A DNA stretch of 64,000 nt from an uncultured Methanosarcinales archaeon. GTDB taxonomy: Archaea > Nanobdellota > Nanobdellia > Woesearchaeales > CAYSVS01. A program made the translations under genes and the position numbers. Positions 47,071-64,000 of this stretch are shown piece by piece. The first letter of the stretch is position 1; the number at the start of each line of letters is the position of its first letter. The stretch spans positions 7,604-71,603 of the forward strand of contig CAYSVS010000002.1 in assembly GCA_964434475.1 (NCBI GenBank). The letters are read 5' to 3'. Under the pieces are notes generated by a model that was not told the origin of the DNA, did not search any database, and saw only the letters and a list, made by a program, of their open reading frames with translations.

Positions 47071-47089
47071 GCAAGTTTATTTCTTACAT

Positions 47090-47213
47090 ATTAAGTATTA
47101 TATAATACAGATTAAGTATAAATAAATACAAATTAAGTACAATTATTTATATTAAACAAATATTTCTTATAAATTAAGTATTTTTTCTTACAAAATAGAA
47201 AAGTTTATAAATA
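47090..47213 (+). promoter_or_regulatory. phased array of four ATTAAGTA boxes (21-nt spacing) plus TATA box for the HTH/giant-gene operon
   Basis: ATTAAGTA occurs at 47090, 47111, 47132 and 47173, giving spacings of 21, 21 and 41 nt. TTTATAAATA lies at 47204-47213, about 30 nt upstream of the ATG at 47241, which implies a leaderless transcript. Confidence 0.5.
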
Positions 47214-47240
47214 GTTTTTATAAAATATTATACCAGTTAT

Positions 47241-47741
47241 ATGAAAAAGAGGTTAAGCGATAAAATAAATAAAAATAACATAGATCTTGATAGTTTAAAT
47301 TCTGAAAATATAATAAAATTGCTTCTTGAGAAGATTTCTGAAACAAAAAAAAGTAGAGGGTTGATAGAAAAAAGAAAAAATATCCCTTTGTCTGTATTCA
47401 AAAATAAAAAATTAGGCATCCTTGAAGCCATAGTTAAATATCTAAAAGAAGAATGCAAGTACAAATACAGCAAGATAGCAAAAATACTTAACAGAGACGA
47501 TAGGACAATATGGACGACATACAATAATGCGAAGAAAAGAAGCAAAAAACCATTGTATATAAAAGAAAGCGATTTTGATATCCCTGTTGAAATATTTTCT
47601 AAGAAAAAATACAGCGCATTAGAAAGCATGTCTGTTTACTTAAGAGACAAGTTTGAACTAGGATATACAGATATCGGAAAAATGCTTGGAAGAAATCCTA
47701 AAACAATCTGGACAACATACAAAAGAGCAAAGAAAAAATGA
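47241..47741 (+). CDS. small basic protein with tandem duplicated HTH (sigma-70 region-4/LuxR-like) modules
   Basis: Two internal repeats carry similar cores: IAKILNRDDRTIWTTYNNAKKRSKK and IGKMLGRNPKTIWTTYKRAKKK. The stop codon overlaps the start of the giant gene (ATGA at 47738-47741). Confidence 0.6.
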   Translation: MKKRLSDKINKNNIDLDSLNSENIIKLLLEKISETKKSRGLIEKRKNIPLSVFKNKKLGILEAIVKYLKEECKYKYSKIAKILNRDDRTIWTTYNNAKKRSKKPLYIKESDFDIPVEIFSKKKYSALESMSVYLRDKFELGYTDIGKMLGRNPKTIWTTYKRAKKK

Positions 47742-50700
47742 ATGAAAAGCTGATGGAAGGACTGAGCATAATTGTTTTGCTAGTTGTCAGTTTAGTATTA
47801 GGATTAAGCGTCAATTATGAAGATAACATAACAGGATTCAGTATTGCAAACTTTGAAAACACATATATGGCGAATGATTCGATAAACATCAATACAGATT
47901 TTAAATTTAATTGCTTTGACATGAACAATACAAAGATATTGGTTGAATTCAACAACAATACAGAGATATACCATATTGAAGAGTTAGAGCACAGTGCAGT
48001 TTATGATAAAACATATGTATTGAACATAAAGGTTAAGTTGGATAATCCTGAACAGATAGGAGAGTATCTGCTAAAGATAAAAGCTACTAGCGACAATGAA
48101 ACGCACAATCTTGAAAAGAAGATACTCATAATGAATAAGACCAATCTTATAGAGATAGAAAAAGAAGCAAGCAATTCTACAGATATCGAAACTAATGAAA
48201 CAAATGTTGTAGAAATAAATGAAACAGAAAAGAAAACAGATATTGAAAATGTCATAAACGAAACACAAATATCAAATCAAACAGAAGCACATAATGATTT
48301 GGCAACAGATGATACAATGCATCAGGATAATAATGAAACAGGAAATATTACAATAAGGATTAACCAAAGCCAAACAAACACAGAAGGAAATGAGCATATG
48401 GATGATGCGTTTAATGAAACAAACATCACAAAGAATATTAAACAAACGCAAAAATATGAAACATTCACATTACAGAGCAAGGAAGGTAAAGACATAGGGG
48501 TTTTTGAGATAAGTGCAAAAGATTCGAAGTATAACTTAAAGATATATGAAGTCGCGAAAAATTCAACAATTCAAGCAGAAGCTACAATAAAGGGGATGAA
48601 AGACATACCTATAGTAAAGACGAAAATAGGCAGAATAAATGAAAAGCACATAAAAACAAAAGTGTTTGCTATAGAGCATATAAAGATACAGGAAGCTGAA
48701 ATAATTCTTCCTAAGACAGGATATGTAGATACAATCTATAGATGCAACAATTTTGATATCGATATCTTCGAATGTGAGGAGGAATGGCAAAAGACAAATA
48801 TAGAGTTCGAAGATCTTGAAAATAGAATAAAATTTACTGTTGATCATTTCAGCGCTTATGCTGGCGGAATAGGTTATGATTCAAGACTGTACATATACGA
48901 TGATACTGACTTTGAGATAAAACAGGTTGAAGAGAATATTTTGTTCTATGCCAACTATACCAACTCAAGTAACCAGACAATATTAGATTCTAATTGCACA
49001 ATAGAATTCAACATTACAGGCAACTGGGAAGGATTATCTAATATGCATTATAATGAGTCTTTGGAATTATGGTTTTTTAACAGAAGCTTTAACGCGTCAG
49101 GAGAAAATCAGTTCAATGTAAGCTGCACTTCCAGTTATGATAATTTAAGTGCGATAGATAGCATCACTATCTACAATGACCATTCAGGACCATATTGGAC
49201 AGAGAATAAGACAAACTTCGAAGGAGTTTCGACATATGAAAAAGATAAAGAGTATATGTTCAATGTTACGTGGAATGATGCAAATGATATAAATGAAGTA
49301 ATTATAGAACATGATTTCAACAGCAGCGTGCACAACTATTCTGTAAATAACATAGGAAATGAATACTATTACACATATACAGGATTAAAGACAGGAACAT
49401 ATAATTGGAAAGAGTATGCATATGACATATTAGGTAATCTTAACTCAACTGATGAATGGCAGTTTGAAATAGTAAAAGCCGAACCTGTGTTGAATTTAAC
49501 TTTGAACAGAATACAAGGAAATGTTTTGGTTAATGAAAATCAAAACTTAAACATTAATGCTTATTGTCAAGAGCCGCATAATGAATATGTGGAATTGTAT
49601 CTTAATGATAGTTTGATAAACAAAGGAACAGGAATATTAAGCAACACAACATCATTTGCAAACGCAGGATTGCATAATTCAACAATAAGGTATCTTGGCA
49701 ATGAAAATTATACTTCAGCAAATATAACATATAATATAAGTGTGAATTCTCAGCCATACATTGATCCGGCAGTACCTAATGTTTCAATATACAGAGATTA
49801 TGGAGATTATGAAATCAATCTTACACATTATGAAAATGATCTTGAAGATTCAGCAGAAAATCTCAGTTGGAGCATAGGGTACATAAACAACAGCTTATTA
49901 CAATACATATTTAATGAGGATGTATTGACGCTGACAACTGTTTCAGCAGCTCATGGAGTAGATAAGCTGGAATTAATATTGACAGACAGCAATGGATTAA
50001 ATGATACGCAGAATATAACTGTATTTATACCTTCAATAGAGCTGCATTCAGAGATAGGAGAATTGTTCATAATAGTTAATAATACGAATTCAACCAGTAT
50101 AATATTGAATGTTACTGATTATTATGCTGATGTTAATTTAACTGTAAACAACAGCAAATGCTCATTAGACAATTATAGTCTAGTAAATTTCATAGGAAAA
50201 AAAGACATAAACTTATCATGTAACTTCAACTACAGCCAAAACATAAGCGAGTATGTATTGATAGATACAAACAAAAGCAACAACCTGACAATAAAGATAA
50301 CTCCTGTTGAACCAAGGTTTAATCTTGAACAGATAAGCGGATACAATATAGTTTCAGGAGGAAGCTTTGATAATTCAATTATGTTGAATGTTTCCTATGT
50401 TTTTGCATTAGATGTAAACAATACAATAGATTGTCCAAATAATTGGGGATGTAATGTTAGTCCAGAGCATTATGCTAAACTAGAGATAGGAAATTATGGA
50501 ATCAATTATTCAATCATAGTGCCCGATGATGAATCTGCAGGAAATTATAGGATAAATTACAGCACATATGACCAATACGGAAGAAAAGAAGATAATTTAT
50601 TTTATGTCAATGTTTCGCAAACACCATTCATCTTTGTTGAAAAGAATAATTTAAGCGCTTATGTTGATATCTGCGAAGATATAGAATATAATATCTATTT

Positions 50701-53700
50701 TGAGAACAATGATCTTGTTAACCTAGACAACATAACAATAATAGATTATCTACCTAGTGATCTTGAGTTTAATTCGTGGAGTACGGAAAACAACAGAACT
50801 ATTGTCGATATGTACAATACAAACTCAAGGATAGTATGGAACAAGAGCAGCATGGAGATAGGAGAAAATATAAGCATAAGCTTGAACTTAACAGCCAACT
50901 GCAGTGCTTATGGTTATAATATCAACAAGGCAAACATAACATATTATTGGAATACTACATCAGGAGCAAGAAGGAATAAAACAACAGAAATCGAAGCACA
51001 CAGAGTTTATGTCAATAAACCAAAGATTGAGCTAGAGATTGTTCCAGATCAAACATTGAAAAATCTCAATCAAACAATAACATGGACATTGAGAATAAGA
51101 AACACAGGAAATGCAACAGCTTACAACATAAACATAAGCTATCTTACAGAGCAAGGTTTTGAATATATAAGTTTCTCGGATATGAGCAACATAAGCAACA
51201 GTAAACCAGGATATGGAGTTGACAATAATCATTCTATACTGTGGATTGCAAACATAACTAAAGGAGATGAATGGACAGCAGAAGTATATGCAAATCCTAA
51301 GTACTGCGATGAAAATTTATTGGATTCTAACTTAAGCGTAAAAGATATCTGCGGATGTGATGAGTTTGATAAACATCTTGAAAGCAATATTAGTTTAAGA
51401 AAAATAATAATTAACAAGACAACAAAGAAAACCGAGTTAGGAATTGGTGAACTTAACACATACACAATCGAAGCACTGGTTTGCGGCGAATATAAAAATT
51501 TGACAATAACAGATAGTTTTCCCAATCTTTTGAATTTTACTAAGAATGATAGTTATGTTGATGATAATGATATAAACATAACAACAATAAAAACAGACAG
51601 AAACTTCAGATGGACACTAAAAAATCACACAGGAAACATGAAGAGCCTTGAAAAATATGTTCACATTAGACTAAACATAAGCCAATACCCTAATAATCTA
51701 TCAAATGACAATGACGAGATAACCAACAATGCAACACTATTGTACTACAATTCTTCAGAGGATGAATCTGATAAATTCTATGAAACAGGAACAAGCGCAG
51801 GAGAAACAAGCATAAGCCAATCTACTATTACAGTATATGAGCCAGATGTACAAATAAGTGTTGAGACTTTGAAAGATACATGGAACATAAGCGATGAACT
51901 GCATGTGAATATTACATTAGTAAATATAGGAAACAATGATGCTTATAATCTGACTATCAACAGCTCGTATGTTGATGGTTTGGAACTGATAAATTCGAGC
52001 TATGAGATGGATTATAATGATACGGAGTTGTTTAGTTGGAAGATAGGCAAACTTGAACAAGCGCAGCAGTTCAGCATAATAGTGAATTATCTAGTCAATG
52101 AAACTTACAAAGATGCAAGAAGAGTGTTAGCTGATGATTATTTAGGAATAGATGCAGATATTGAATACTACAGTTATTACCTCGATAATGAACATAATGC
52201 TGTTCCAAGAGAATATTATGATCAAGACAATAAGCAGATAAAAATAGACAGAGCATATCTTAATTTTGATACTGACAAAATAGTTGCAGCGATAGGAGAA
52301 AAGATAACATATGACATAACAGCAGACTTCAGCAAAGTATATGCTAATGATGCACATATAATAAATAAGATTCCTTTTGGAACAGAATTTATCAGATATA
52401 CTAACTCAAGCTATATGGATCTGACTGTTGATATGAACAGATTGATATTCAATCTTACTAACATTACGGAAAGGAAAAAGATAAATCTAAGCATAGAAGT
52501 TTATGTTAATTCTTCTGCATACGACGGACAAAACTTGATAAATTATGTTAACTTAACATATCAAAACAGCACAGATGATGAGTTTGTCATTCAACATAGT
52601 TCTACTGTAACAGTAAGAGAACCATTCATAGACATAATAAAAGAATTGATGAGCAGCCAAGAAATAAAGATAGGAGATGTTGTTGAATACAATATTACAA
52701 TAATCAATAATGGACTATATGATGGATATAATGTTACTATGCAAGAGAACATATCTGACGGACTGATACTTAATTCATCTTCTCCTGCTTATGATTCTAA
52801 AAACGGAAACATATTAGTATGGCATTACAGCAAATTCCAAAAACAGACAACCAAGAACATATTGCTTAATCTTACAGTCAACAGGACATACAAAAGTGGC
52901 GAGTATGTTAGTGCAAATGATGTTTTCAATAATCATGTTGATATAAATTATTATGGCTTCAATTCAACAATAGCAGAAGAGTATAATGCAACAGTAAATG
53001 CGTATTATAATGAAACATATTCTGATAACAAGGTAGAACTGATAAAACCTCGAATATATGTATTTAGAGACAAGACAAACGCAACAATAGGAGAAAATGT
53101 CAGCTATAATATAGTATTGAATTTCACAGAAACAGCAGGCAATTATGTTGAGCTTAATAACACGCTTGATCAAGGGTTTGTGCTGATAAATGCAACGAAT
53201 AATCCTAGCTATAACGGAAGAAATCTGCTGTGGAGTTTTGGCAATATATCCTTACAAAGAATAGAGATAAACTACTCAGTATATATCAATGATACTTCTA
53301 TAAACGAAAAAGGAAGGAATGTTGAACAAAAGTTTGACTTGAAATATGAAAGCCATAATCTTACTAAACATTATCTAAACAATAAAACATACATTGAGAT
53401 AAAAGAGCCTAATGTTACAATATTTAAACAGCTTATGAGCGATCCTAATTCAGGGATAGGAGAAGTTATAGAATACAATATAACCATAGTCAATCGAGGA
53501 AATTCGGATGCGTTCAATGTTACAATAAAAGATAGGATTCCTAATGGAACATATTACAATACATCTAATCCTGGCTTTGTTAAGGAAGAAAATAAATATC
53601 TGCTTTGGAACTATTCAAGACTAGATGCAGGAGATTATAGGACAATCTTATTGAATTTCACTATAAACAACAGCTATGATGACAGAAGCATTGTCAATTC

Positions 53701-56700: not shown

Positions 56701-59700
56701 ATGGTATTGGCGTGTAAGAACTTGTGACGACAGCTATTCTACGAATAATTGCACATATTCTGCAGAAAACTTTACTTTTACAATAGATGAAAGTACAAGC
56801 ATAGTTACACTGACTGAGCCCATAGATGGCCATAATGCCACCAAAAATAATATGACATTTATCTGCAATGTTACAGATAATTATGGACTAAAGAACATAA
56901 CTTTATTTGCAAATATCACTGGATGGAACAAGTTTGGATCAACTAATATATCTGGTAAGAAAAATTCTTCTGTATTTGTTGTTACAAACATATCAGATGG
57001 ATCATATGTATGGAACTGCCTTGCTTATGATATGGCGGGCAACTATAATTGGGCGCTGAGCAACAATACATTTAGGATAGATACTAATGCGCCTAATATA
57101 ACATACTATTATCCTTCAAATGGCGCAAGTTTAGGATATACAACAACAAAAGTTGAAGCAGAGATAAGGACTGATGAATTGTCTGTATGCTGGTATAATT
57201 TTACAAATAAAAGTTTTGTATATTCACAAGGAAATAATTTCAATGACAGCTATAGATACAATCACAGCCTAAATATTAGCATTAGCCAAGGACAAAGCTA
57301 CAGCATCTATTATCTATGCAATGATAGTTACGGCAACCTAAACAATGAGTCTTATGTGCATAGTTTCTCTGTACAGACGCAGCCAGATGATCCAAGCGGA
57401 GGAGGGGAAGAAGAACCGCCTGCTGAACCAGAATGCACAGCAAGCTGGGAGTGCACAGCTTGGAGTCCTGCAATATGTCCTCCAAGCGGAATACAGACAA
57501 GATCTTGTACATGTTCATGTCCAGGAGGAACTGGGTGTACAGGAGATTATAGTACATCAAGAACTTGCGTATACACGCCAACATGCGATGATGGAATAAA
57601 GAATCAGGATGAAACAGATGTAGATTGCGGAGGAAGCTGTCTGGGATGCAGCACAGGAAAGCAGTGCAGCCAGCAGACAGATTGTTTATCAGGGTTATGC
57701 GTAAGTAATGTATGCAGAGAAGTAGGATGCTTCAACAATATCAAAGATGGAGATGAAACAGATATAGATTGCGGTGGAAGCTGCAGTAAATGCGCGGTGA
57801 ATAAAGCATGTTCAAGCAAAAGCGACTGTTTGTCAAATTTATGTATCAATAATATATGTAAAAATCCTTCTTGCACAGACAGCTTAAAAAACCAGGATGA
57901 AACTGATATAGATTGTGGAGGAAATATTTGTTCAGGATGTGCAGTAGACAAGAACTGCAATGCTAATTCAGACTGCCAAAGCAATTATTGCATAGGAGGA
58001 AAATGCAAGATAGCTTCGTGTTCAGATGGTTTGATGAATCAGGATGAGACAGATGTAGACTGCGGAGGAAGCATATGCGGAAAGTGCAGCATAGGCAAAG
58101 AATGCCTGATAGATCCTGATTGTATCAATAACAACTGCGTTTTAGGACAATGTGTTGAAGTAAGCTGTGATGATGGAATACAAAATGGAGATGAAACAGA
58201 TGTAGATTGCGGAGGAGTATGTGGAAAGTGCAGAATAGGAAGTAGCTGTGCTTTGGATAGCGATTGCGAGAATAATAATTGCTTATCAAACGTATGTGCT
58301 GCAGAGAATTGCGATGACAATATAAAGAACGGAGATGAAACAGATGTAGATTGCGGAGGAAGCTGTCCTAGATGCGATACAGGAAAATCTTGTTCTGTTA
58401 ATTCTGATTGCTCCAGCAACAGCTGCATAGACAACATATGCGGAGCTCCAAACTGTGAAGATAATTCCAAGAATCAGGATGAGACAGATGTAGACTGTGG
58501 AGGAAGCTGCTATGCTTGCGAGGATGGCAAGCAATGTTCTGTAAATTCAGATTGTGCTAGCTTGTTCTGTAAAGAAAATGTTTGCAGACAAGCTTCATGC
58601 ACAGACACTATAATTAACCAGGACGAAACAGATGTAGATTGCGGAGGACCTTGTCAAGGTTGTACTGCAGGAAAGAATTGTATGGTTGATAGCGACTGTA
58701 TAAGCAAATATTGCGTCGCAGGAATGTGCGAAACAGCAAGCTGCACTGACGGTGTGCTCAACGGAGATGAAGAAGGCATAGACTGCGGAGGAAGCTGTCC
58801 AGCGTGTGCTAGCTGTGATGATGGGATCAAGAACGGAGATGAAAAAGGAATAGATTGCGGAGGAAGCTGCCCAGCGTGCTTCTTGGAATGTAGCGATGGA
58901 ACACAGGCAGGAAAATGCTCTGTTGAAAAGCCAAAATATTGTACATTGGATGAGGCTTTGGTGTTTGATTGCGAAAATTGCGGATGTCCTAATACAGGAG
59001 ATGTTTGTCAAGCTGATGGAAAATGCAGAGGAATAGGTAGCTGTTCAGACAGAATACAGAACCAAGGCGAAACAGGAGTGGATTGCGGCGGACCTTGTAA
59101 AGCGTGTGAAGCTACTTGTTTTGATGGATTAAAAAATCAAGGCGAAACAGGAGTAGATTGCGGAGGACCTTGCGAACCTTGCGCTAAAGAGCCTTTGCTT
59201 GAAAAACCAGGGCAATTTGAATTTGATGAAATACAAAGCTATGAATTTATGTTATATGAAAATGATATGCAAGAGTTTGAGATAGACAATATTAAACATA
59301 CAGTGCATGTATCAAAAGTTTATCTGGATAGTGCTGATCTAATAATAAGTTCTGACCCTATAAAGGTTAATGTTAAACTTGGAAAAGAAAGTTATGTAGA
59401 TATTGACGGAGATAATATTTATGATATTAGATTATTAATAAAAGATATAGCAGACAAAGGAATAAGCCTAAAGATAACTGTGCTTGAAGAAAGGATAACT
59501 GCTGCACAAAGAATAAGGCAGTTGTTGGGTCTTGAGGAGAGAGAAAGTTCCATTATACCTCAGGACATAAACATAGATAATATGCCTTGTCTCAAGGATC
59601 CTAAATCCAGCCAAAACAAGATTTCTGTTTTTGGTTCTGATTTTAAGTTTGATACACCTATAGGTTATGATGTCCTGATTGATGGTTTCAATATAATGTG

Positions 59701-62700
59701 CAATAATGGCGCAACAAATTTGACACTGACAATACCTAAGAATTACGCAGATATTTTCGCCTTGGATAAAAACGGAAATAGGATAAAATTGGCAAGCACT
59801 GGCTTGAAATGCGGAGAAGAGTTTGAGGAATTTGCAAAAGATGAAATGTTTGTAAGGGAGTATGAAGATTTTGAAGTTGCAGGAAATATTGATGAAAACA
59901 ATAAAAATATCAATCATGAATATTATGATTTTGAATTCATTACAGATGATAAATTTAAGGTTGTTTTGAAAAAACCAAAAGATCCAGTTTTAGAGCCTAA
60001 AAATAATCTTTTGAAGATAAGCGGAAAAGCCATTGCATTGCATATAGATAAAAAAATAGTATCTGGAAATCTAAAGATAGCCTTGCCTTTGGTAAAAGAT
60101 GAAAAGATAGAAGAAGGAAGCTATAATGTTTATGTTATGGTTCCTGGTCAGCAATGGAAGTTGTTGGAAAGTGATGAATATGAAAAGATAATAAGTTCTA
60201 GATTAAATAACCTTAGCAGTTACATAAACAGAAATAATGAGATTGTTTTGGCTGTAATAGGTAAGATATGCGCTAACTGTAAGTACAGCACACTAAAAAA
60301 AGCGTATGATCCTGGCAATACAAGAGATGCATTGCTGATGATACATGGATTAGGAAGCTCGCCAAAAACATTTGAGAATGTGCTTAAGGATATAAGGATG
60401 ACTAACCAGCCATGGCAGGCTTGGACTTACGGATATCCTACAGAAAAGAGCGTTAGTAAAAATGCGATTGAGCTTGCACACCATCTTGAAGCAAATGCAG
60501 ATGAATTTGATTATATGTATATTGCAGCGCACAGCATGGGCGGACTAGTAGTAAGAGAAGCGTTGTATTATAGCTATCTTGTAAATAAGGAAAAACCAGG
60601 AACATTCAAGTATTTGGATAAGATCAAGAAAGTAATACTTATTAGTGTTCCGAATAAAGGGAGCCCTGGCGCAGAGTTCTTATTAGGATTATCTCAATAC
60701 CTGACAAACGACAAATCAGACACAGCAATAGTGAATCTGGATAGCAAAGGCGTGCAAGATCTTATCAATGGTACAGAGACACCTATGGTGTCTGGAATAA
60801 AGTATTATGTTATTGCTGGAACAAAAAGCTATGAATTCGGAAAAAGCATATTAAGGGTTGAGTTGTTTGAACAAAACGTAACAAACGACGGACTTGTTTC
60901 TGTAGATAGTGCACAAAAAGTAGGGGGGGCTGTACTTGATGATGAGTGTGAAAACTATTGGGAAATATATGAGACACATACAGAAATATTAGATAATCCT
61001 ATATCACGAAGATTAGTAGAAAAGATAGTAGCTGAAGAGATAGCTAAAGGAATAAAAAACACTGCAATATTAGGAAATATAGTCTATTATGATCTGCCTA
61101 TCAAATGCGGAGAGGATTATGTTGTTCTTGGCAAGAAAGTTAATCCAAATAAACAGTATGATCCAACAGGATGCTTATGCGGAAATGGATACTGCGGCGA
61201 AGGAGAGGATAAAGAGAATTGCGCAATAGACTGCGATACTTTATTGAATAAAGAGAATATATGTAAAAGTTCGCCATTTGCAATATTATTGCTTATTGTT
61301 GTTATGCTGATAATAGGAGCCCCTTATGTTTATGAAAAATATATCAGACGCTTGAGATTTGCAACAGTTTTGAAAAACAGGATGGTATGCTGCTTTGTGT
61401 GGACAGCATATATTATTGCTGCTGTCAATCTTATGCTGTTCTTGTATTATAAGCAGTTTTGTATCAGCTATTATAGTGTGGGGCTGGGTAAGAATATGCT
61501 AATAGCTTTAGGCATGTTGATTGTTGTATTGTTAATATATGATTGGTTCATATATAAGTTTAGGAAAGAAGAGAAGAAGCTTGAGAAAGAGTTCAAGTTT
61601 ATGAGTAATATTGCAAGATTGTTTAGACTCCATGTTAAGTTGATGTTATGGATAGTTTGGATATTGATAGTTATAGGTTATGCTGCAGGAATGATGGTTG
61701 TGTTTAACATCAGTGAAGAGTTATTTGCAAATCTGTTGTTCAATGTTATATTGGTGATATTGACGTTTGTAGCTGTAAATACCTTGAACTTCTTTGTTTA
61801 CGAAGAAAGGAAGATAGTTACAGGATTGGAGAAGAAAGAGAAAGAGATAGAGAAATTGGAAAGATTTGAAGAAAAAGAGATCAAGAAAGAGAAGAAGAAG
61901 ATATGGGAATTGGAGTTTAAGGAATTGTTTAAGTCCAAAAAAGAAGTCAAGAGATTGAAATCTTTAGAAAAAGCAAGGAAAGCCAGGTTTAAAAAACTGA
62001 AGAAAAAAGAAAGGAGAGAGAAGATAAGAATATTCAAGATAAGGGTTAGGAAGGTCAAGGACAGGCTTTTGCATAAATTAGGTTTAAAATATACTATAAA
62101 GGAAAAGGAAAGGCTGTTTAAGAAAGAAAGATTAAAGAATTTAGAAAAAGCTAGAAGGGTTAAGAAAAGGAAAGCGAAAATAAAAAATATGAACAAATAC
62201 CTCAACAAACTAAAAAACAAGATTAAAAGGTATTTCAAGAAAGAATTGAAAGAGGTTAATGAAGATTACAAAGAATGGTATGAAAAAGAACTGCGTAAAA
62301 TTGAAAGAGAGAAAATCAGAAGGATGGTAAGAGCAAAGAAATGGTATAAATTCTTAAGAAAGATTGGATTGTACCATACCAAAAAAGATAAGCAGATGTT
62401 GTTAGATAAGAAGAGATTGAAAAGTTTAGAAAAAGCAAGAAGAGTTAAGAAATTTAATTCTATAATTAAAAAATTGCATAAAAGAAAGCTAAAACCTCTA
62501 GAGAAAGCAAGAAAAGCCAGGAAGAGGAAAGCAGAGCTTAATAGGATTAAAAGAAAAATCAATAAGTTGAAACAAAAAATAATCAAAAGTTTTGGAAAAA
62601 TAAAGATAAAGCCAAGCTGGAAAACAAAAGAAAGGCTGGCTAAATTAGGATTATACAGCAAAAGAAAGATTATTGAACATAATGAAAGAGTGGAAAGAGC

Positions 62701-62803
62701 AAAGATTGTGAAACTCATGAAGAAAGATAAGAAAAAAAGGAAAAGAGAAGCTGATAAAGAATATGATGATCTAAAGTATGGAGAGCAGACAGATTGGGAG
62801 TAA
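47738..62803 (+). CDS. giant (5,021 aa) multidomain cell-surface protein with embedded lipase-like hydrolase domain and C-terminal 5-TM anchor
   Basis: A single uninterrupted 15,066-nt ORF. An N-terminal hydrophobic signal or anchor (LSIIVLLVVSLVLGLSV) is followed by an Asn-rich region dense in N-x-S/T sequons. Next come DUF11-like β-sandwich repeats, FN3-like and cadherin-like domains, 8 full and about 5 half Cys-rich repeats, an α/β-hydrolase domain (IHGLGSS, AHSMGG), five C-terminal TM helices and a K/R-rich repeat tail. Confidence 0.85.
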   Translation: MNEKLMEGLSIIVLLVVSLVLGLSVNYEDNITGFSIANFENTYMANDSININTDFKFNCFDMNNTKILVEFNNNTEIYHIEELEHSAVYDKTYVLNIKVKLDNPEQIGEYLLKIKATSDNETHNLEKKILIMNKTNLIEIEKEASNSTDIETNETNVVEINETEKKTDIENVINETQISNQTEAHNDLATDDTMHQDNNETGNITIRINQSQTNTEGNEHMDDAFNETNITKNIKQTQKYETFTLQSKEGKDIGVFEISAKDSKYNLKIYEVAKNSTIQAEATIKGMKDIPIVKTKIGRINEKHIKTKVFAIEHIKIQEAEIILPKTGYVDTIYRCNNFDIDIFECEEEWQKTNIEFEDLENRIKFTVDHFSAYAGGIGYDSRLYIYDDTDFEIKQVEENILFYANYTNSSNQTILDSNCTIEFNITGNWEGLSNMHYNESLELWFFNRSFNASGENQFNVSCTSSYDNLSAIDSITIYNDHSGPYWTENKTNFEGVSTYEKDKEYMFNVTWNDANDINEVIIEHDFNSSVHNYSVNNIGNEYYYTYTGLKTGTYNWKEYAYDILGNLNSTDEWQFEIVKAEPVLNLTLNRIQGNVLVNENQNLNINAYCQEPHNEYVELYLNDSLINKGTGILSNTTSFANAGLHNSTIRYLGNENYTSANITYNISVNSQPYIDPAVPNVSIYRDYGDYEINLTHYENDLEDSAENLSWSIGYINNSLLQYIFNEDVLTLTTVSAAHGVDKLELILTDSNGLNDTQNITVFIPSIELHSEIGELFIIVNNTNSTSIILNVTDYYADVNLTVNNSKCSLDNYSLVNFIGKKDINLSCNFNYSQNISEYVLIDTNKSNNLTIKITPVEPRFNLEQISGYNIVSGGSFDNSIMLNVSYVFALDVNNTIDCPNNWGCNVSPEHYAKLEIGNYGINYSIIVPDDESAGNYRINYSTYDQYGRKEDNLFYVNVSQTPFIFVEKNNLSAYVDICEDIEYNIYFENNDLVNLDNITIIDYLPSDLEFNSWSTENNRTIVDMYNTNSRIVWNKSSMEIGENISISLNLTANCSAYGYNINKANITYYWNTTSGARRNKTTEIEAHRVYVNKPKIELEIVPDQTLKNLNQTITWTLRIRNTGNATAYNINISYLTEQGFEYISFSDMSNISNSKPGYGVDNNHSILWIANITKGDEWTAEVYANPKYCDENLLDSNLSVKDICGCDEFDKHLESNISLRKIIINKTTKKTELGIGELNTYTIEALVCGEYKNLTITDSFPNLLNFTKNDSYVDDNDINITTIKTDRNFRWTLKNHTGNMKSLEKYVHIRLNISQYPNNLSNDNDEITNNATLLYYNSSEDESDKFYETGTSAGETSISQSTITVYEPDVQISVETLKDTWNISDELHVNITLVNIGNNDAYNLTINSSYVDGLELINSSYEMDYNDTELFSWKIGKLEQAQQFSIIVNYLVNETYKDARRVLADDYLGIDADIEYYSYYLDNEHNAVPREYYDQDNKQIKIDRAYLNFDTDKIVAAIGEKITYDITADFSKVYANDAHIINKIPFGTEFIRYTNSSYMDLTVDMNRLIFNLTNITERKKINLSIEVYVNSSAYDGQNLINYVNLTYQNSTDDEFVIQHSSTVTVREPFIDIIKELMSSQEIKIGDVVEYNITIINNGLYDGYNVTMQENISDGLILNSSSPAYDSKNGNILVWHYSKFQKQTTKNILLNLTVNRTYKSGEYVSANDVFNNHVDINYYGFNSTIAEEYNATVNAYYNETYSDNKVELIKPRIYVFRDKTNATIGENVSYNIVLNFTETAGNYVELNNTLDQGFVLINATNNPSYNGRNLLWSFGNISLQRIEINYSVYINDTSINEKGRNVEQKFDLKYESHNLTKHYLNNKTYIEIKEPNVTIFKQLMSDPNSGIGEVIEYNITIVNRGNSDAFNVTIKDRIPNGTYYNTSNPGFVKEENKYLLWNYSRLDAGDYRTILLNFTINNSYDDRSIVNSGDIFGNSVNMTYYSYNYTLANPYKGKTRKYYIGTNSDAFVIISPEFGKITSPLKTIAGIGENINYVINVNYTAGANNVTVNDLLPDNIVLVNYSFEDNATTDNKTIQWNFGRVGEIRQDNINIRTYVNDSSSVYDGIEIEKNYANLTYIGENNTVYNLSSLSNTVTVREPNVNLSIVLIGNKHLKIKDNVEYKISIENIGNYAAYNVTLHDKIPDGLFYNSSNIGYKAFEDNILEYNYPKISAGTVKNILLNLTINGTYADGNLVSSNDSIYDSINTTYYSFNQTKAKEYGGIVREYFNSSYSENISLIAPTIEKYVNSSFGYEGDIIKYVIEVNASNGLRNFTVEDNLPEGLTYVNDTRHIYSSLDGNNITWEFGDVPNQFTYINITVNISSSPDQGDGVYIDNNTATIYYMNSNKKVFSLNSTSSRTEMNVPPEQINLTSPVDEHNTTNRQPSFDWGDSNDLDIVDSIKYYLEISNSSCFEYLYADQNTTLSEYTLTGVQSLSDGQYYWRVKICDDSLKLNNCSYSYENFTFRVDNGAPEITIHEPDEDEVVAWLVYFIANATDNLTHTDKVWYTISNNTLMQQGFLNMSNSWEAVWNTANIVSNSTDINHFNFTVYANDTLDNTANKTIAFVVDNRNPGLQIISPDKTYHNANIGLDIRLSNEHLNKSWFEINYSSRALLISNNTEIGKPRFNWTQQIDLSIEDNYTLTVYAEDEVGNNITKQTWFVYDTSAPNHQLFRSPIPAYTTDNITLSVIVNDNYNIDTVYITHNASGTYENHSVQISGNNYSRIIYHNETSNQENIGWYTWINDSAKNVNISSIEAIKIENRVPVFSPLLSNKIAQEDQEFRYNINATDYDYEDSINYTTNATEFMINKNTGLINWTPTNEDVGVLVVNVTICDNSTAAAYCNSSVFNITVNNTNDAPYAVSLGLPENNSITNDPNPYFNWSVANDVDAGDSLTYYLILDNNSDFSSVELIQNTTNNLYGLTNSQNLSNDQWYWRVRTCDDSYSTNNCTYSAENFTFTIDESTSIVTLTEPIDGHNATKNNMTFICNVTDNYGLKNITLFANITGWNKFGSTNISGKKNSSVFVVTNISDGSYVWNCLAYDMAGNYNWALSNNTFRIDTNAPNITYYYPSNGASLGYTTTKVEAEIRTDELSVCWYNFTNKSFVYSQGNNFNDSYRYNHSLNISISQGQSYSIYYLCNDSYGNLNNESYVHSFSVQTQPDDPSGGGEEEPPAEPECTASWECTAWSPAICPPSGIQTRSCTCSCPGGTGCTGDYSTSRTCVYTPTCDDGIKNQDETDVDCGGSCLGCSTGKQCSQQTDCLSGLCVSNVCREVGCFNNIKDGDETDIDCGGSCSKCAVNKACSSKSDCLSNLCINNICKNPSCTDSLKNQDETDIDCGGNICSGCAVDKNCNANSDCQSNYCIGGKCKIASCSDGLMNQDETDVDCGGSICGKCSIGKECLIDPDCINNNCVLGQCVEVSCDDGIQNGDETDVDCGGVCGKCRIGSSCALDSDCENNNCLSNVCAAENCDDNIKNGDETDVDCGGSCPRCDTGKSCSVNSDCSSNSCIDNICGAPNCEDNSKNQDETDVDCGGSCYACEDGKQCSVNSDCASLFCKENVCRQASCTDTIINQDETDVDCGGPCQGCTAGKNCMVDSDCISKYCVAGMCETASCTDGVLNGDEEGIDCGGSCPACASCDDGIKNGDEKGIDCGGSCPACFLECSDGTQAGKCSVEKPKYCTLDEALVFDCENCGCPNTGDVCQADGKCRGIGSCSDRIQNQGETGVDCGGPCKACEATCFDGLKNQGETGVDCGGPCEPCAKEPLLEKPGQFEFDEIQSYEFMLYENDMQEFEIDNIKHTVHVSKVYLDSADLIISSDPIKVNVKLGKESYVDIDGDNIYDIRLLIKDIADKGISLKITVLEERITAAQRIRQLLGLEERESSIIPQDINIDNMPCLKDPKSSQNKISVFGSDFKFDTPIGYDVLIDGFNIMCNNGATNLTLTIPKNYADIFALDKNGNRIKLASTGLKCGEEFEEFAKDEMFVREYEDFEVAGNIDENNKNINHEYYDFEFITDDKFKVVLKKPKDPVLEPKNNLLKISGKAIALHIDKKIVSGNLKIALPLVKDEKIEEGSYNVYVMVPGQQWKLLESDEYEKIISSRLNNLSSYINRNNEIVLAVIGKICANCKYSTLKKAYDPGNTRDALLMIHGLGSSPKTFENVLKDIRMTNQPWQAWTYGYPTEKSVSKNAIELAHHLEANADEFDYMYIAAHSMGGLVVREALYYSYLVNKEKPGTFKYLDKIKKVILISVPNKGSPGAEFLLGLSQYLTNDKSDTAIVNLDSKGVQDLINGTETPMVSGIKYYVIAGTKSYEFGKSILRVELFEQNVTNDGLVSVDSAQKVGGAVLDDECENYWEIYETHTEILDNPISRRLVEKIVAEEIAKGIKNTAILGNIVYYDLPIKCGEDYVVLGKKVNPNKQYDPTGCLCGNGYCGEGEDKENCAIDCDTLLNKENICKSSPFAILLLIVVMLIIGAPYVYEKYIRRLRFATVLKNRMVCCFVWTAYIIAAVNLMLFLYYKQFCISYYSVGLGKNMLIALGMLIVVLLIYDWFIYKFRKEEKKLEKEFKFMSNIARLFRLHVKLMLWIVWILIVIGYAAGMMVVFNISEELFANLLFNVILVILTFVAVNTLNFFVYEERKIVTGLEKKEKEIEKLERFEEKEIKKEKKKIWELEFKELFKSKKEVKRLKSLEKARKARFKKLKKKERREKIRIFKIRVRKVKDRLLHKLGLKYTIKEKERLFKKERLKNLEKARRVKKRKAKIKNMNKYLNKLKNKIKRYFKKELKEVNEDYKEWYEKELRKIEREKIRRMVRAKKWYKFLRKIGLYHTKKDKQMLLDKKRLKSLEKARRVKKFNSIIKKLHKRKLKPLEKARKARKRKAELNRIKRKINKLKQKIIKSFGKIKIKPSWKTKERLAKLGLYSKRKIIEHNERVERAKIVKLMKKDKKKRKREADKEYDDLKYGEQTDWE
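57580..59200 (+). repeat. in-frame tandem array of ~48-aa (144-nt) cysteine-rich repeats within the giant gene
   Basis: The repeat consensus is C-x-D-x-I/L-K-N-G/Q-D-E-T-D-V/I-D-C-G-G-S-C-x-x-C-x-x-G-K-x-C-x-x-x-S-D-C-x-S-N-x-C-x-x-x-x-C, with 8 Cys per full unit. There are eight full units and about five 24-aa half units. The periodicity is visible at the DNA level. Confidence 0.85.
60300..61000 (+). other. lipase-class α/β-hydrolase domain inside the giant protein (aa ~4190-4420)
   Basis: It has an oxyanion-hole HG box (LLMIHGLGSS) and a nucleophile elbow AHSMGG (GxSxG). A downstream candidate catalytic Asp (TNDGLVSVDS) and His (YETHTEIL) follow. The order and spacing resemble Bacillus LipA-type (Lipase_2/PGAP1-like) enzymes. 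Confidence 0.75.
61250..62803 (+). other. C-terminal 5-TM membrane anchor and cytoplasmic K/R/E-rich repeat tail of the giant protein
   Basis: Five hydrophobic helices are present: FAILLLIVVMLIIGAPYVY, MVCCFVWTAYIIAAVNLMLFLYY, MLIALGMLIVVLLIYDWFIY, LMLWIVWILIVIGYAAGMMVVF and LLFNVILVILTFVAVNTLNFFVY. A roughly 330-aa tail follows, with reiterated KLGL-Y…RLK-S/N-LEKARRVKK units. Confidence 0.7.
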
Positions 62804-62857
62804 AAGAAAATATTTATATAATAAATAATTTATTAATAATGAATAAAGGGGTTAACT

Positions 62858-64000
62858 GTGAAAAAATTGGTGAGTTTAGGGATTGCATTATTGTTTCTGT
62901 GTAGTTTAGCTTACGCAGATGAAGTATGGCATAGTTCTCAATATATAAGATTAAATGGAGATCCTTCTCATAACTTATCTACTTGGAGAGATTCAGGAGA
63001 TTATACTAAGATAAATGCAGCTTATCTGTGGAGTTTGGGAAATGTTCCATCAGGAGCAGGAACATTGCCAGCAGTAAATATTCCTAATCTAGATGCTGAT
63101 AAAATAACTACAGGATCAATAGATAATTCTGTATTCAGCGCATATTCAGATTTAACTGCAGAAGGATATCTTGATAATGATGCTAATGGTGATCTGCTTA
63201 CAAGAACACAATCAGATTCTAGATTCGTAAATGAAGGGCAAGCAGATTCGATAACTTCTGGAATGGTTAATTTCAATTACGCTGCTTCAGGTTCAGAAGG
63301 AGGGGCTGCTACAGGATTAGCTTGCTCAGGAACTTGTGTATCTTCAGGAGAGGTTGATTTTAATTATGCAGCTGGCGCAACCAAAGGCGGCGCTGCTACT
63401 TCGGGCGATTCGGCAACAGCATTCTTTTCAACCGGAACATTAGAGGATGAGAGGATAGCATCAACGATCGCAAGAGATTCTGAAGTCACAGCAGCAATCG
63501 CAACTAAAGATGAGTGCTCAGAAATAAGTGGATGCGTTGTTGGCGCGATAACTGACGATACATCAGTTCCAAAAAATCATATGGCAAATTCAGGAACATT
63601 AGGATTTGATTGGGCTGATAGTGAGGTTGTTAATGATTTGACAATTACAAGTTCAGGCAGTGTTGATGCTGGTGCGATTAAGTCTGGCACTGTGGCTGAT
63701 GCGAGGATAGCATCAACGATTGCAAGAGATTCTGAAGTCACAGCAGCAATCGCAACTAAAGACCAATGTTCAGAAATAAGCGGATGCGTTGTTGGCGCGA
63801 TAACAGATGATACATCAGTTCCAAAAAATCATATGACAAATTCAGGAACATTAGGATTTGATTGGGCTGATAGTGAGGTTGCTGATGCTTTGACAATTAC
63901 AAGTTCAGGCAGTGTTGATGCTGGTGCGATTAAGTCTGGCACTATGGCTGATGATAGATTATCTTTTACTTTACAAGATGCTGTAAATGATGGCGGTTGT
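62858..64000 (+). CDS. secreted repeat protein (GTG start; 3' partial, continues beyond window)
   Basis: The frame opens after a TGA at 62840. GTG at 62858 is preceded by an AAAGGGG Shine-Dalgarno sequence 6 nt upstream. A signal peptide is present (VKKLVSLGIALLFLCSLAYA). The product is Gly/Ser/Ala/Thr-rich and contains near-identical 84-aa (252-nt) tandem repeats. It is absent from the ORF track because it lacks an ATG start. Confidence 0.6.
   Translation, partial: MKKLVSLGIALLFLCSLAYADEVWHSSQYIRLNGDPSHNLSTWRDSGDYTKINAAYLWSLGNVPSGAGTLPAVNIPNLDADKITTGSIDNSVFSAYSDLTAEGYLDNDANGDLLTRTQSDSRFVNEGQADSITSGMVNFNYAASGSEGGAATGLACSGTCVSSGEVDFNYAAGATKGGAATSGDSATAFFSTGTLEDERIASTIARDSEVTAAIATKDECSEISGCVVGAITDDTSVPKNHMANSGTLGFDWADSEVVNDLTITSSGSVDAGAIKSGTVADARIASTIARDSEVTAAIATKDQCSEISGCVVGAITDDTSVPKNHMTNSGTLGFDWADSEVADALTITSSGSVDAGAIKSGTMADDRLSFTLQDAVNDGGC
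63452..64000 (+). repeat. 252-nt near-identical tandem repeat (>=2.2 copies, runs off window)
   Basis: The unit starting at 63452 (gaggatagcatcaacgatcgcaagagattctgaagtcac…) recurs at 63704 with only a handful of substitutions. The encoded unit is ARIASTIARDSEVTAAIATKD(E/Q)CSEISGCVVGAITDDTSVPKNHM.NSGTLGFDWADSEV…SGSVDAGAIKSGT.AD. Confidence 0.85.

What the first reader, a model, noticed from the sequence alone, without database searches (positions are those of the whole stretch)
47738..62803. 5,021-aa mosaic surface protein combining adhesin-type repeats, a disulfide-rich module, a lipase domain and a C-terminal 5-TM anchor
One uninterrupted 15-kb ORF, about a quarter of this window, encodes a protein anchored at both ends: an N-terminal signal or TM segment and a C-terminal five-helix bundle with a highly basic cytoplasmic tail. 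The region between them carries at least six different extracellular module types: an Asn/sequon-rich region, DUF11-like super-repeats, FN3-like domains, a cadherin-like domain, 8-Cys repeats and an α/β-hydrolase. Giant surface proteins are known from small-genome episymbiotic archaea and are assumed to mediate host contact. An embedded lipase-type catalytic domain together with a multi-pass C-terminal anchor and a cytoplasmic repeat tail is a combination I do not recognise from any described family. A plausible role is an attachment and host-membrane-remodelling 'weapon', with the tail signalling or attaching to the cytoskeleton inside the cell.
Basis: partly seen in the sequence, partly recalled or inferred. 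Interest (0 to 1): 0.88.

Follow-up and report, generated by a model that had tools for sequence, protein, structure and literature searches.

The report
Giant archaeal surface adhesin with lipase
This is a real, intact 5,021-residue surface protein of a tiny symbiotic-type (Woesearchaeota-like) archaeon: a long sugar-coated sticky stalk ends in a lipase-like enzyme held at the cell's own membrane. It belongs to a sizeable family, so far undescribed, that could help explain how such cells stick to partners and harvest lipids.

Summary
Window 47738-62803 (+) is one uninterrupted 5,021-codon ORF in a core archaeal chromosome region. It has an N-terminal hydrophobic segment, about 3,200 aa of sequon-dense DUF11/Ig-like domains and twelve 'DCGG' Cys-rich units. 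A beta-sandwich follows, then an alpha/beta-hydrolase with a Ser4266-Asp4384-His4414 triad, a Cys knot, five TM helices and a 332-aa basic tail.

It is not a one-off. The beta-sandwich + hydrolase + knot + TM + basic-tail cassette defines an unnamed family: at least 237 clusters at 50% identity and 38 GTDB species, nearly all Woesearchaeota/Nanoarchaeota. N-terminal extensions in this family range from almost nothing to more than 6,800 aa.

New here: the beta-sandwich resembles GAIN/ZU5 domains but lacks their cleavage motif. A small tandem-HTH gene is directly adjacent in 17 of 38 loci, with a phased repeat array upstream. Substrate, tail function and any signalling role remain untested.

The parts
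47073..47194 (.). Phased repeat array upstream of the operon: a 21-bp unit x5.9, with ATTAAGTA at 47090, 47111, 47132 and 47173. Candidate operator.
   Evidence: TRF. ATTAAGTA occurs four times here and only once elsewhere in the 64 kb. Heptamers with similar ~20-21-nt phasing lie upstream of HTH homologs in L008, L014, L027, L032 and L036. Function is inferred.
47204..47213 (+). TATA-box-like TTTATAAATA, about 28 nt upstream of the HTH start codon.
   Evidence: Read directly from the sequence. Inference only.
47241..47741 (+). 166-aa tandem-HTH protein (two ~60-aa repeats, pI ~10). Its stop codon overlaps the start of the giant gene (ATGA).
   Evidence: Pfam Sigma70_r4_2 at 35.8 bits, above the cut-off, plus HTH_23. 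Sequence. Homologs lie directly adjacent on the same strand in 17 of 38 related loci.
47738..62803 (+). Giant gene, 5,021 aa plus stop codon.
47750..47818 (+). N-terminal hydrophobic segment (aa 5-27), either a signal peptide or a signal anchor.
   Evidence: Kyte-Doolittle peak 2.55. Complete family members also start with such a segment. Whether it is cleaved was not tested.
47819..57487 (+). Sequon-dense (predicted heavily N-glycosylated), acidic outer ectodomain, aa 28-3250.
   Evidence: 221 N-x-S/T sequons against 73 expected (z 20.5), pI 4.5. The same contrast between extension and cassette is seen across the family.
50636..54487 (+). DUF11 repeat array (aa ~967-2250), with ~262-aa super-repeats.
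   Evidence: Pfam DUF11 E 1.7e-20, 9.5e-31 and 3e-17 in successive tiles. TIGR01451. Internal BLAST repeats.
54605..57487 (+). Ig-like beta-sandwich region (aa ~2290-3250). It includes He_PIG (aa 2821-2908) and a duplicated ~140-aa unit (aa 2404-2544 and 2900-3030).
   Evidence: He_PIG 31.4 bits, above the cut-off. Cadherin, Big_3_3 and Big_9 are below their cut-offs. Duplication. No PDB sequence match.
57581..59227 (+). Cys-rich array (aa 3282-3830): eight 48-aa 8-Cys units plus four 24-aa half units (C-x-D-G-x2-N-x-D-E-T-D-x-D-C-G-G...). It contains no sequons.
   Evidence: The same repeat occurs in more than 6,000 proteins, mostly Myxococcota, with no Pfam model. Within this family only the window protein carries it as an array (at least three DCGG units; a few members have a single one).
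59618..60313 (+). Conserved beta-sandwich domain next to the enzyme (aa ~3961-4192), with a GAIN/ZU5-like fold.
60323..61057 (+). Alpha/beta-hydrolase (aa ~4196-4440): oxyanion H4203-G4204, nucleophile S4266 in AHSMGG, D4384 in NDG, H4414 in THTE.
61172..61234 (+). Cys knot C-x-C-G-N-G-Y-C-G-E-G-E-D-x3-C-x2-D-C (aa 4479-4499), directly before TM1.
   Evidence: Cysteines conserved in 151-155 of ~155 aligned members.
61253..61804 (+). Five hydrophobic helices (aa 4506-4689). K/R-rich loops follow TM1 and TM3, which fits an N-out/C-in topology.
   Evidence: Hydropathy and sequence. Family members have 1 (73), 2 (23), 3 (36) or 4-5 (4) helices here.
61805..62800 (+). Cytoplasmic basic tail (aa 4690-5021): 41% K+R, with repeated LEKAR(K/R) and LxK[LI]GL[KY] motifs.
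   Evidence: repeat family D4. It aligns with the tails of P0221, P0207 and P0296. The motif LHxxGL[YR][RK]T is shared with P0221 and L003. Tails are net-positive in 98 of 101 members.

Best explanation
The gene encodes a C-terminally membrane-anchored ecto-esterase/lipase that carries a very long, N-glycosylated adhesin stalk. It belongs to an unnamed family specific to Woesearchaeota/Nanoarchaeota.

Shown:
- The family is defined by a conserved cassette: a GAIN/ZU5-like beta-sandwich, a Ser-Asp-His alpha/beta-hydrolase, a Cys knot, 1-5 TM helices and a net-basic cytoplasmic tail.
- In front of the cassette lineages have placed hypervariable arrays of adhesion-type domains. Here these are DUF11, Ig-like and a Cys-repeat array of the type most common in Myxococcota.

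Inferred mechanism:
- The protein is exported by Sec, with its N-terminus outside and the basic tail inside.
- The acidic, glycan-coated stalk reaches outward and binds partner cells, vesicles or particles.
- The serine hydrolase, held within a few nanometres of the archaeon's own membrane, cleaves carboxyl-ester bonds. The most likely substrates are acyl esters of bacterial-type or environmental lipids. Fatty acids or lyso-lipids would then be released right at the surface of a cell with limited lipid synthesis.
- The co-encoded tandem-HTH protein, with a phased repeat array upstream, probably controls transcription of the pair.
For: Intact gene in a core chromosome region.

Cassette and family:
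- Cassette conserved at 28-46% identity in 38 GTDB species and at least 237 clusters, nearly always at the C-terminus.
- Triad conserved in about 97-100% of members, which argues for selection on catalysis.

Enzyme type:
- Confident model of the hydrolase core.
- Pfam matches in the family are to lipid-acyl hydrolase groups: DUF676, PGAP1 and DUF7379.
- The AHSMGG elbow matches the Bacillus-type lipase pentapeptide (own knowledge).

Topology and stalk:
- Positive-inside topology.
- Sequons are three-fold enriched in the extension and at or below expectation in the cassette, in this protein and across the family.

Regulator: HTH adjacency in 17/38 loci plus phased repeats upstream.

Biological context: Woesearchaeota and Pacearchaeota already have large extracellular enzymes proposed to act on bacterial hosts, and some carry bacterial-type fatty-acid genes (PMC8204110).
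Against: - No substrate was tested.
- In this protein the Pfam hydrolase hits are below the curated cut-offs.
- Archaeal ether lipids are not esterase substrates, so the target must be foreign or non-lipid, and the partner organism is unknown.
- The function of the tail is unexplained.
- It is not known whether the N-terminal segment is cleaved, so the protein could be anchored at both ends.
- Four family members have Ser->Gly at the nucleophile position.
Confidence: 0.5

Rival explanations
1. The protein is a contact-dependent weapon: the adhesin array docks on the host and the embedded lipase remodels or perforates the host membrane, while the tail signals or attaches to a cytoskeleton.
For: - Lipase-like fold and a conserved triad.
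- Giant DPANN surface proteins with enzyme domains are proposed host-interaction factors (SPEARE, PMC6642349).
- Large extracellular enzymes of Woesearchaeota are proposed to act on bacterial hosts.
Against: - The hydrolase is at the membrane-proximal end, ending about 40-70 aa before TM1. About 3,900 aa of stalk lie between it and the distal tip.
- Many family members have little or no stalk, so the enzyme works without long-range docking.
- No pore-forming or toxin domain was found.
- The tail has no recognisable domain.
Confidence: 0.2
2. The enzyme acts on the archaeon's own envelope or on non-lipid esters. It could be a PlaF-like remodeller of self membrane lipids, a processing enzyme for lipid- or acyl-modified surface proteins, or an esterase for acetylated polysaccharides or polyesters captured by the stalk.
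For: - Its position next to the membrane mirrors membrane-tethered PlaF (PMC10976570).
- PGAP1 and DUF676 relatives deacylate lipid anchors (Pfam hits; the function is own knowledge).
Against: - Archaeal membranes are ether-linked, so there is nothing for an esterase to cut unless this lineage uses ester lipids.
- The best-scoring neighbours are true lipases.
- A huge adhesin array is hard to explain for a purely housekeeping role.
Confidence: 0.17
3. The protein is a contact or force sensor, analogous to adhesion GPCRs, microbial MAIN-domain proteins or RsgI anti-sigma factors. Pulling on the stalk would change or cleave the GAIN/ZU5-like domain, and the signal would pass through the TM bundle and tail to the co-encoded tandem-HTH regulator.
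For: - GAIN/ZU5-like fold immediately outside the membrane region.
- A highly conserved N-P and G-T-P motif in that domain in the family. Asn-Pro autocleavage is known in RsgI (PMC10328401).
- Microbial GAIN (MAIN) domains are autoproteolytic (bioRxiv 10.64898/2026.05.12.724683).
- A sigma70-region-4-like HTH gene is adjacent in 17/38 loci.
Against: - No conserved H-x-S/T in the last beta-turn.
- The window protein itself has N-N and G-K-A in place of N-P and G-T-P.
- Both the tail and the HTH protein are strongly basic (pI 10.6 and 10.0), which makes direct sequestration unlikely.
- Tails differ widely among members that keep the HTH neighbour.
Confidence: 0.1
4. Artefact: an assembly chimera, or several genes fused by sequencing errors.
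For: The Logan contig of the same genome ends inside the gene, at window 50592. Full-length support comes from a single NCBI contig.
Against: - No stop codon in 15 kb of 32% GC DNA.
- Internal repeats are too diverged to collapse in assembly.
- Each C-terminal junction (beta-sandwich, hydrolase, knot, TM, tail) is reproduced in dozens of independent genomes.
- Proteins of 4,000-7,600 aa with the same layout exist.
Confidence: 0.03

Closest known systems
SPEARE proteins of Nanohaloarchaeota (PMC6642349)
   Same: Giant (up to 8,553 aa) DPANN proteins. Most of the length is extracytoplasmic and carries adhesion domains and an embedded hydrolytic enzyme, with a TM segment near the C-terminus and a cytoplasmic C-terminal region. 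They are proposed to mediate host interaction.
   Different: SPEARE proteins carry a serine protease, laminin-G and toxin-like domains, and a cytoplasmic type III restriction-enzyme region, which is their most conserved part. Here the enzyme is an alpha/beta-hydrolase next to the membrane and the cytoplasmic part is a basic low-complexity tail. No sequence relationship was detected.
Microbial GAIN ('MAIN') domain surface proteins, and adhesion-GPCR GAIN or ZU5/FIIND domains (bioRxiv 10.64898/2026.05.12.724683)
   Same: A signal peptide, a long array of adhesion domains, then a GAIN_B/ZU5-like beta-sandwich close to the cell-surface anchor. Archaeal examples exist.
   Different: The defining H-x-(S/T) autocleavage motif is absent. 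The enzyme lies C-terminal to the beta-sandwich, so it would stay on the cell rather than be released. The anchor is a multi-pass TM region plus a tail.
Bacterial secreted lipases (BlEst2 6wpx/6wpy; family I.1/I.2 lipases 1ex9, 4hs9; Bacillus-type A-H-S-M-G lipases) and Pfam DUF676 / PGAP1 / DUF7379
   Same: Alpha/beta-hydrolase fold, H-G oxyanion motif, [AG]-H-S-[LM]-G nucleophile elbow and a Ser-Asp-His triad. These are the best structural matches.
   Different: Only 13-19% identity. In this protein the Pfam scores are below the curated cut-offs. The enzyme is fused to a beta-sandwich, a Cys knot, a TM anchor and a giant stalk, and it occurs in an archaeon whose own lipids should be ethers.
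PlaF, the membrane-tethered phospholipase A1 of Pseudomonas aeruginosa (PMC10976570)
   Same: An alpha/beta-hydrolase held at the outer face of the cytoplasmic membrane by a TM helix, acting on lipids at the membrane surface.
   Different: PlaF is small, anchored at its N-terminus, and remodels the cell's own ester lipids. No homology beyond the fold was tested.
Large extracellular murein-transglycosylase proteins of Woesearchaeota/Pacearchaeota (PMC8204110)
   Same: Same lineages and the same logic: large surface proteins with a bacterial-type hydrolytic domain, thought to act on bacterial partners.
   Different: A different enzyme, acting on glycan rather than on esters. That paper does not mention a lipase or esterase family.
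48-51-aa 8-Cys 'DCGG' repeat arrays of Myxococcota secreted proteins (unnamed, no Pfam model)
   Same: The same unit, C-x-D-G-x2-N-x2-E-x-D-x-D-C-G-G...D-C-x-S-x2-C, in tandem arrays at 40-54% identity.
   Different: In Myxococcota the arrays are attached to discoidin, fibrinogen-C, CBM3 or FGE-sulfatase domains. In the lipase family only this protein has such an array.

Membership tests
Alpha/beta-hydrolase serine esterase/lipase | Alpha/beta-hydrolase fold | tested here: met
Alpha/beta-hydrolase serine esterase/lipase | Nucleophile elbow [GA]-x-S-x-G with a Ser-Asp-His triad and an H-G oxyanion motif, conserved in relatives | tested here: met
   AHS4266MGG, D4384, H4414 and H4203-G4204. Invariant in 14 sequences. 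Ser 154/158, Asp 157/157, His 156/157.
Alpha/beta-hydrolase serine esterase/lipase | Hydrolysis of long-chain acyl esters (true lipase) rather than short esters | not testable with these tools
   Needs an enzyme assay. Structural neighbours include both lipases and other esterases.
Pfam DUF676 (PF05057) / DUF7379 (PF24096) | Score at or above the Pfam gathering threshold | tested here: not met
   Window protein: DUF676 18.5-18.7 bits against a cut-off of 20.3, and DUF7379 21.6-21.8 against 33. All 7 scanned family members match DUF676 (best E 2.3e-08) and 5 match DUF7379. It is therefore a related but divergent lineage.
Unnamed Woesearchaeota/Nanoarchaeota cassette family (beta-sandwich + hydrolase + Cys knot + TM + basic tail) | Full-length match to the cassette profile, with the same order of parts at the C-terminus | tested here: met
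   E 1.5e-234 for the window protein (P0205) in the profile search. 237 clusters at E<=1e-30. Same order in 38 GTDB loci and in 139 of 150 representatives.
DUF11 repeat surface proteins (PF01345 / TIGR01451) | Repeated matches above the curated cut-off | tested here: met
   73.9, 106.9 and 63.4 bits in three tiles against a cut-off of 24.6. TIGR01451 up to 89 bits.
GAIN / microbial MAIN autoproteolytic domains | GAIN_B-type beta-sandwich fold | tested here: inconclusive
GAIN / microbial MAIN autoproteolytic domains | Conserved H-x-(S/T) cleavage motif in the turn before the last beta-strand | tested here: not met
   In 146 aligned members no column in aa 4140-4185 has more than 7 His, and the window protein has no such motif.
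GAIN / microbial MAIN autoproteolytic domains | [quoted passage not shown] | tested here: not met
   Here the hydrolase follows the beta-sandwich and sits between it and the anchor. The MAIN order is taken from the preprint.
SPEARE proteins | Cytoplasmic type III restriction-enzyme region, extracellular serine protease and laminin-G domains | tested here: not met
   No such Pfam or NCBIfam matches in any tile of the protein. The tail has no domain hit.
SPEARE proteins | Giant ectodomain, C-terminal TM and cytoplasmic C-terminus | tested here: met
   Hydropathy and charge distribution.
   Cadherin 17.1 bits against 28.8, and no FN3 hit at all. He_PIG (Ig-like) does pass, at 31.4 against 24.

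The most novel reading that the evidence does not exclude
The cassette is an archaeal counterpart of adhesion-GPCR or RsgI-type mechanosensing. The giant glycosylated stalk would transmit pulling force from a bound partner to a GAIN/ZU5-like domain. In most family members that domain carries a conserved Asn-Pro / Gly-Thr-Pro motif and so may self-cleave. This would expose or activate the membrane-proximal lipase and signal through the TM bundle and basic tail to the co-encoded tandem-HTH regulator. Partner contact, lipid harvesting and gene expression would then be coupled in one two-gene module.
Probability: 0.1. Interest if true: 0.85.

Novelty: new variant of a known kind. Interest (0 to 1): 0.56.

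Why it matters
Most DPANN archaea are thought to depend on other cells for lipids and other building blocks, and the molecules that do the docking and harvesting are largely unknown. This family offers a concrete candidate that can be purified.

- It has a conserved, probably active, surface-displayed lipase-type enzyme.
- It is found nearly only in Woesearchaeota/Nanoarchaeota.
- It is wired to hypervariable glycosylated adhesin arrays and to a dedicated small regulator.

It also extends the recently recognised theme of GAIN/ZU5-like domains at microbial cell surfaces to a new arrangement. The conserved cassette with a hypervariable stalk gives a natural system for studying how partner specificity evolves.

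Tried and rejected
Searches that found nothing:
- tRNA and Rfam scans of the window.
- PDB sequence searches with the hydrolase (only E ~0.8), the Cys array, the Ig-like region, the N-terminal 930 aa and the HTH protein.
- NCBIfam added only DUF11.
- No Pfam or NCBIfam model matched the Cys repeats, the TM bundle, the tail or aa 1-960.

Technical dead ends:
- The AFDB Foldseek library was not available.
- Whole-protein self-BLAST returned only the diagonal, so I used chunked BLAST instead.

Ideas tested and dropped:
- Neighbour conservation: only the HTH gene recurs next to family members. TldD/PmbA, TyrRS and the downstream repeat protein do not.
- SPEARE membership: no shared domains.
- MAIN/GAIN membership: no H-x-S/T motif and a different domain order.
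- Homologous N-terminal stalks in the largest relatives: only scattered shared domains, not colinear.
- The tail as a conserved domain: only a short LHxxGL[YR][RK]T motif is shared, and only with the closest subfamily.
- Mis-assembly: judged unlikely.
Full report
OBSERVATION

Window 47738-62803 (+) is a single ORF of 5,021 codons with an ATG start and no internal stop. In DNA of this composition (32-39% GC along the gene) a random frame hits a stop about every 12 codons. The chance of 5,021 stop-free codons is about 5e-187.

The window is ordinary archaeal core chromosome. It carries the L3-L4-L2-S3...S5-SecY ribosomal operon, Hef, the primase large subunit, PheRS alpha and beta, Pta-AckA, eRF1, RFC, TyrRS/TrpRS and a TldD/PmbA pair.

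The exact 5,021-aa protein is present in the public protein collection, from an NCBI contig of 72 kb, unnamed. An independent Logan assembly of run SRR7048224 matches window 44241-50592 at 100% and then ends. DNA-level repeats inside the gene are at most 83% identical over at most 77 nt, so repeat collapse is unlikely. I consider the gene real and intact. Full-length support still rests on one contig.

ANATOMY

Membrane segments and topology
- Hydropathy finds one N-terminal hydrophobic segment (aa 5-27) and five C-terminal ones (aa 4506-4689).
- The loops after TM1 and TM3 and the whole tail are rich in K and R. This fits an N-out/C-in topology with the tail in the cytoplasm (sequence; inference from the positive-inside rule).

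Outer ectodomain (aa 28-3250)
- It is acidic (pI 4.5) and carries 221 N-x-S/T sequons against 73 expected from shuffles (z = 20).
- The Cys-rich region has none, against 5.9 expected. The cassette has about the expected number.
- Pfam and NCBIfam confirm a DUF11 array at aa ~967-2250 (E down to 1e-30) and an Ig-like He_PIG domain.
- The Cadherin, Big_3_3 and Big_9 matches are below threshold, and nothing matched FN3.
- Internal BLAST shows ~262-aa DUF11 super-repeats and a duplicated ~140-aa unit.

Cys-rich array (aa 3282-3830)
- It holds eight 48-aa units of eight cysteines and four 24-aa half units.
- This repeat is not peculiar to archaea. More than 6,000 proteins match it, mostly from Myxococcota. 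They carry arrays of typically eight units, attached to many different domains, and no Pfam model exists.

CONSERVED CASSETTE AND ITS FAMILY

Size and distribution
- Searching with aa 3880-4700 found six relatives at 31-45% identity.
- A profile built from them found ten strong hits. These were followed by a gap of about 150 orders of magnitude down to generic alpha/beta-hydrolases.
- An exhaustive profile search of 1.84 billion cluster representatives gave 237 proteins at E<=1e-30.
- A scan of one genome per GTDB species gave 38 loci. By record title, 17 are Woesearchaeota, 9 are Nanoarchaeota or Nanoarchaeia, 1 is 'archaeon' and 11 are 'uncultured Methanosarcinales archaeon'. I suspect, but did not verify, that the last label is a pipeline mislabel.

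Shared layout
- Relatives share aa 3935-4502 of this protein: a beta-rich domain, the hydrolase and the motif C-x-C-G-N-G-x-C-x3-E-x4-C-x2-D-C.
- This is followed by 1 (73 cases), 2 (23), 3 (36) or 4-5 (4) hydrophobic helices and a tail that is net-positive in 98 of 101 cases.

Variable stalk
- What precedes the cassette varies from almost nothing to more than 6,800 aa.
- Ten of the best-scoring representatives that show the knot motif exceed 4,000 aa, and the longest is 7,646 aa.
- The extensions are not colinear. L005/P0221 (5,003 aa, annotated 'hypothetical protein', Ca. Woesearchaeota) has no DUF11. BLAST between the giants finds only scattered shared domains.
- Sequon density is 4-8 per 100 aa in most extensions and 0-2 per 100 aa in the cassette across the family.
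- Only the window protein carries an array of the DCGG Cys units; four relatives have a single DCGG.
- P0221, P0207 and P0296 align with this protein through the cassette, the TM region and the entire tail (about 23-30% identity over ~1,100 aa).
- The tail motif LHxxGL[YR][RK]T recurs in P0221 and L003.

THE ENZYME
- In 14 aligned sequences H4203-G4204, S4266 (in A-H-S-M-G-G), D4384 (in N-D-G) and H4414 (in T-H-T-E) are invariant.
- Among 158 aligned family domains Ser is kept in 154, Asp in 157/157 and His in 156/157. Four have Gly at the nucleophile position.
- An AlphaFold2 model built on the family alignment has pLDDT 84-97 through the hydrolase core.
- Foldseek against the PDB ranks lipases first: BlEst2, then the Proteus, Pseudomonas and Burkholderia family I lipases, with PlaB also listed.
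- In this protein the Pfam DUF676 and DUF7379 matches fall just below the curated cut-offs. All seven scanned cassettes match DUF676 and four match PGAP1.

The domain is therefore an alpha/beta-hydrolase that is almost certainly catalytic and is nearest to secreted lipases. The substrate is not established.

THE BETA-SANDWICH BEFORE THE ENZYME
- A May 2026 preprint reports that GAIN-like 'MAIN' domains are widespread on bacterial and archaeal surfaces. They self-cleave at H-x-(S/T) and sit between N-terminal adhesion or enzyme domains and the anchor.
- I tested that membership. The family has no conserved His, and no H-x-S/T, in the last turn, and the enzyme lies on the anchor side. It is not a MAIN domain by those criteria.
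- The family does have a strongly conserved (E/Q)-P-x-N-P...G-T-P motif: N in 134 of 146, P in 104, G in 114 and P in 136. Asn-Pro self-cleavage is documented in RsgI anti-sigma factors.
- The window protein has N-N and G-K-A at these positions. This remains an untested idea.

GENOMIC PARTNER
- The 166-aa gene at 47241-47741 overlaps the start of the giant gene (ATGA). It encodes two ~60-aa HTH repeats (Sigma70_r4_2 above threshold, HTH_23; pI 10).
- Homologs lie directly adjacent on the same strand in 17 of 38 loci: 12 abut the start, and 5 lie downstream (three within 9-27 nt, two 296 and 1,288 nt away). About eight loci with both flanks visible lack it.
- No other neighbour is conserved.
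- Upstream, four ATTAAGTA copies at 21-bp phase (47090-47180) precede a TATA-like element. Only one other copy exists in the 64 kb.
- Heptamers repeated at ~20-21 nt also precede HTH homologs in several loci, for example ACTTACA in L008 and L014. This resembles the CTTACA inside the window's repeat unit.
- A dedicated, probably autoregulated, transcription factor is the simplest reading (inference).

MECHANISM

Shown: a conserved, selectively maintained serine-hydrolase cassette anchored by C-terminal TM helices, a hypervariable sequon-rich stalk, and a linked regulator.

Inferred
- The stalk binds partners or particles.
- The enzyme ends only about 40-70 residues before TM1, so it works at the archaeon's own surface.
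- Archaeal lipids are ether-linked while bacterial lipids are ester-linked (abstract of PMC9385802, listed). The likely substrates are therefore foreign ester lipids or other esters.
- This fits published suggestions that Woesearchaeota and Pacearchaeota interact with bacteria through large extracellular enzymes and carry some bacterial lipid genes (PMC8204110).
- If the stalk domains are extended tandem beta-sandwiches, it could span on the order of 100 nm. This is a rough inference from typical Ig-domain dimensions and was not computed here.
- The tail is unexplained. It is 41% K+R, predicted to be cytoplasmic, and conserved mainly in charge.

COMPARISON AND NOVELTY
- The closest described analogues are the SPEARE proteins of Nanohaloarchaeota. 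They have the same topology and logic, but different enzyme and cytoplasmic domains.
- I found no paper describing this lipase-cassette family. Public annotations read 'hypothetical protein' or 'esterase/lipase family protein'.
- I rate it a new variant of a known kind: giant DPANN surface proteins with embedded enzymes.
- Three features deserve follow-up: the GAIN/ZU5-like juxtamembrane domain, the HTH partner and the basic tail.

Noticed in passing
window 47073-47194: A phased 21-bp repeat array (ATTAAGTA x4, with a CTTACA-containing unit) sits just upstream of a TATA-like element and the HTH-plus-giant gene pair. Heptamers with similar ~20-21-nt phasing lie upstream of HTH homologs in L008, L014, L027, L032 and L036. 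It is probably an operator array.
   Followed up: partly
window 47241-47741; L003, L005, L008, L013-L015, L018, L024-L027, L032-L034, L036, L040: A small tandem-HTH protein (sigma70 region-4-like) is directly adjacent to the lipase-cassette gene on the same strand in 17 of 38 species. It is upstream and abutting in 12 and downstream in 5.
   Followed up: partly
window ~62839-64000 (+), runs off the window: The next gene encodes a secreted protein (signal peptide ...KKLVSLGIALLFLCSLAYA) with a 252-bp (84-aa) tandem repeat at 63446-63954 that is 94% identical between copies. This is probably another surface protein.
   Followed up: no
giant protein aa 4086-4098 (window ~59993-60031) and family alignment: The family-wide conserved motif (E/Q)P-x-N-P-x-L-K-I-x-G-T-P lies in the GAIN/ZU5-like domain. 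The window protein has N-N and G-K-A instead. Asn-Pro is a known self-cleavage site in RsgI, but nothing was tested here.
   Followed up: partly
window 57581-59227: The 48-aa 8-Cys 'DCGG' repeat has no Pfam model, yet it matches more than 6,000 proteins, mainly from Myxococcota, plus one rotifer record. Within the lipase family only this protein has it as an array, which suggests horizontal acquisition of the array.
   Followed up: partly
P0333 (5,821 aa) and P0285 (7,646 aa): One family member has the cassette at its N-terminus (residues 2-570), followed by more than 5,000 further residues. Another reaches 7,646 aa. The first may be a truncated start, a fusion or a reversed architecture.
   Followed up: no
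L007 (tail of at least 831 aa) and L034 (tail of 791 aa, 262 K+R): Some relatives have enormous cytoplasmic tails of quite different kinds. L007 has ~50-aa helical repeats, and L034 has an extremely K/R-rich repeat region. The cytoplasmic part therefore diversifies as well.
   Followed up: no
window 30591-32660: A bacterial-type phosphotransacetylase and acetate kinase pair lies in this archaeal genome, consistent with a fermentative DPANN lifestyle.
   Followed up: no
window 33837-41097: Six consecutive ORFs of 292-599 aa were noted. Five of them were scanned and have no Pfam match; the sixth, at 36810-37688, was not scanned. None was examined further.
   Followed up: no
L006-L008, L011, L013, L014, L027, L029, L031, L035, L036: Eleven related loci come from MAGs titled 'uncultured Methanosarcinales archaeon'. 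All the other loci are Woesearchaeota or Nanoarchaeota, so this may be a taxonomic mislabel in those records.
   Followed up: no
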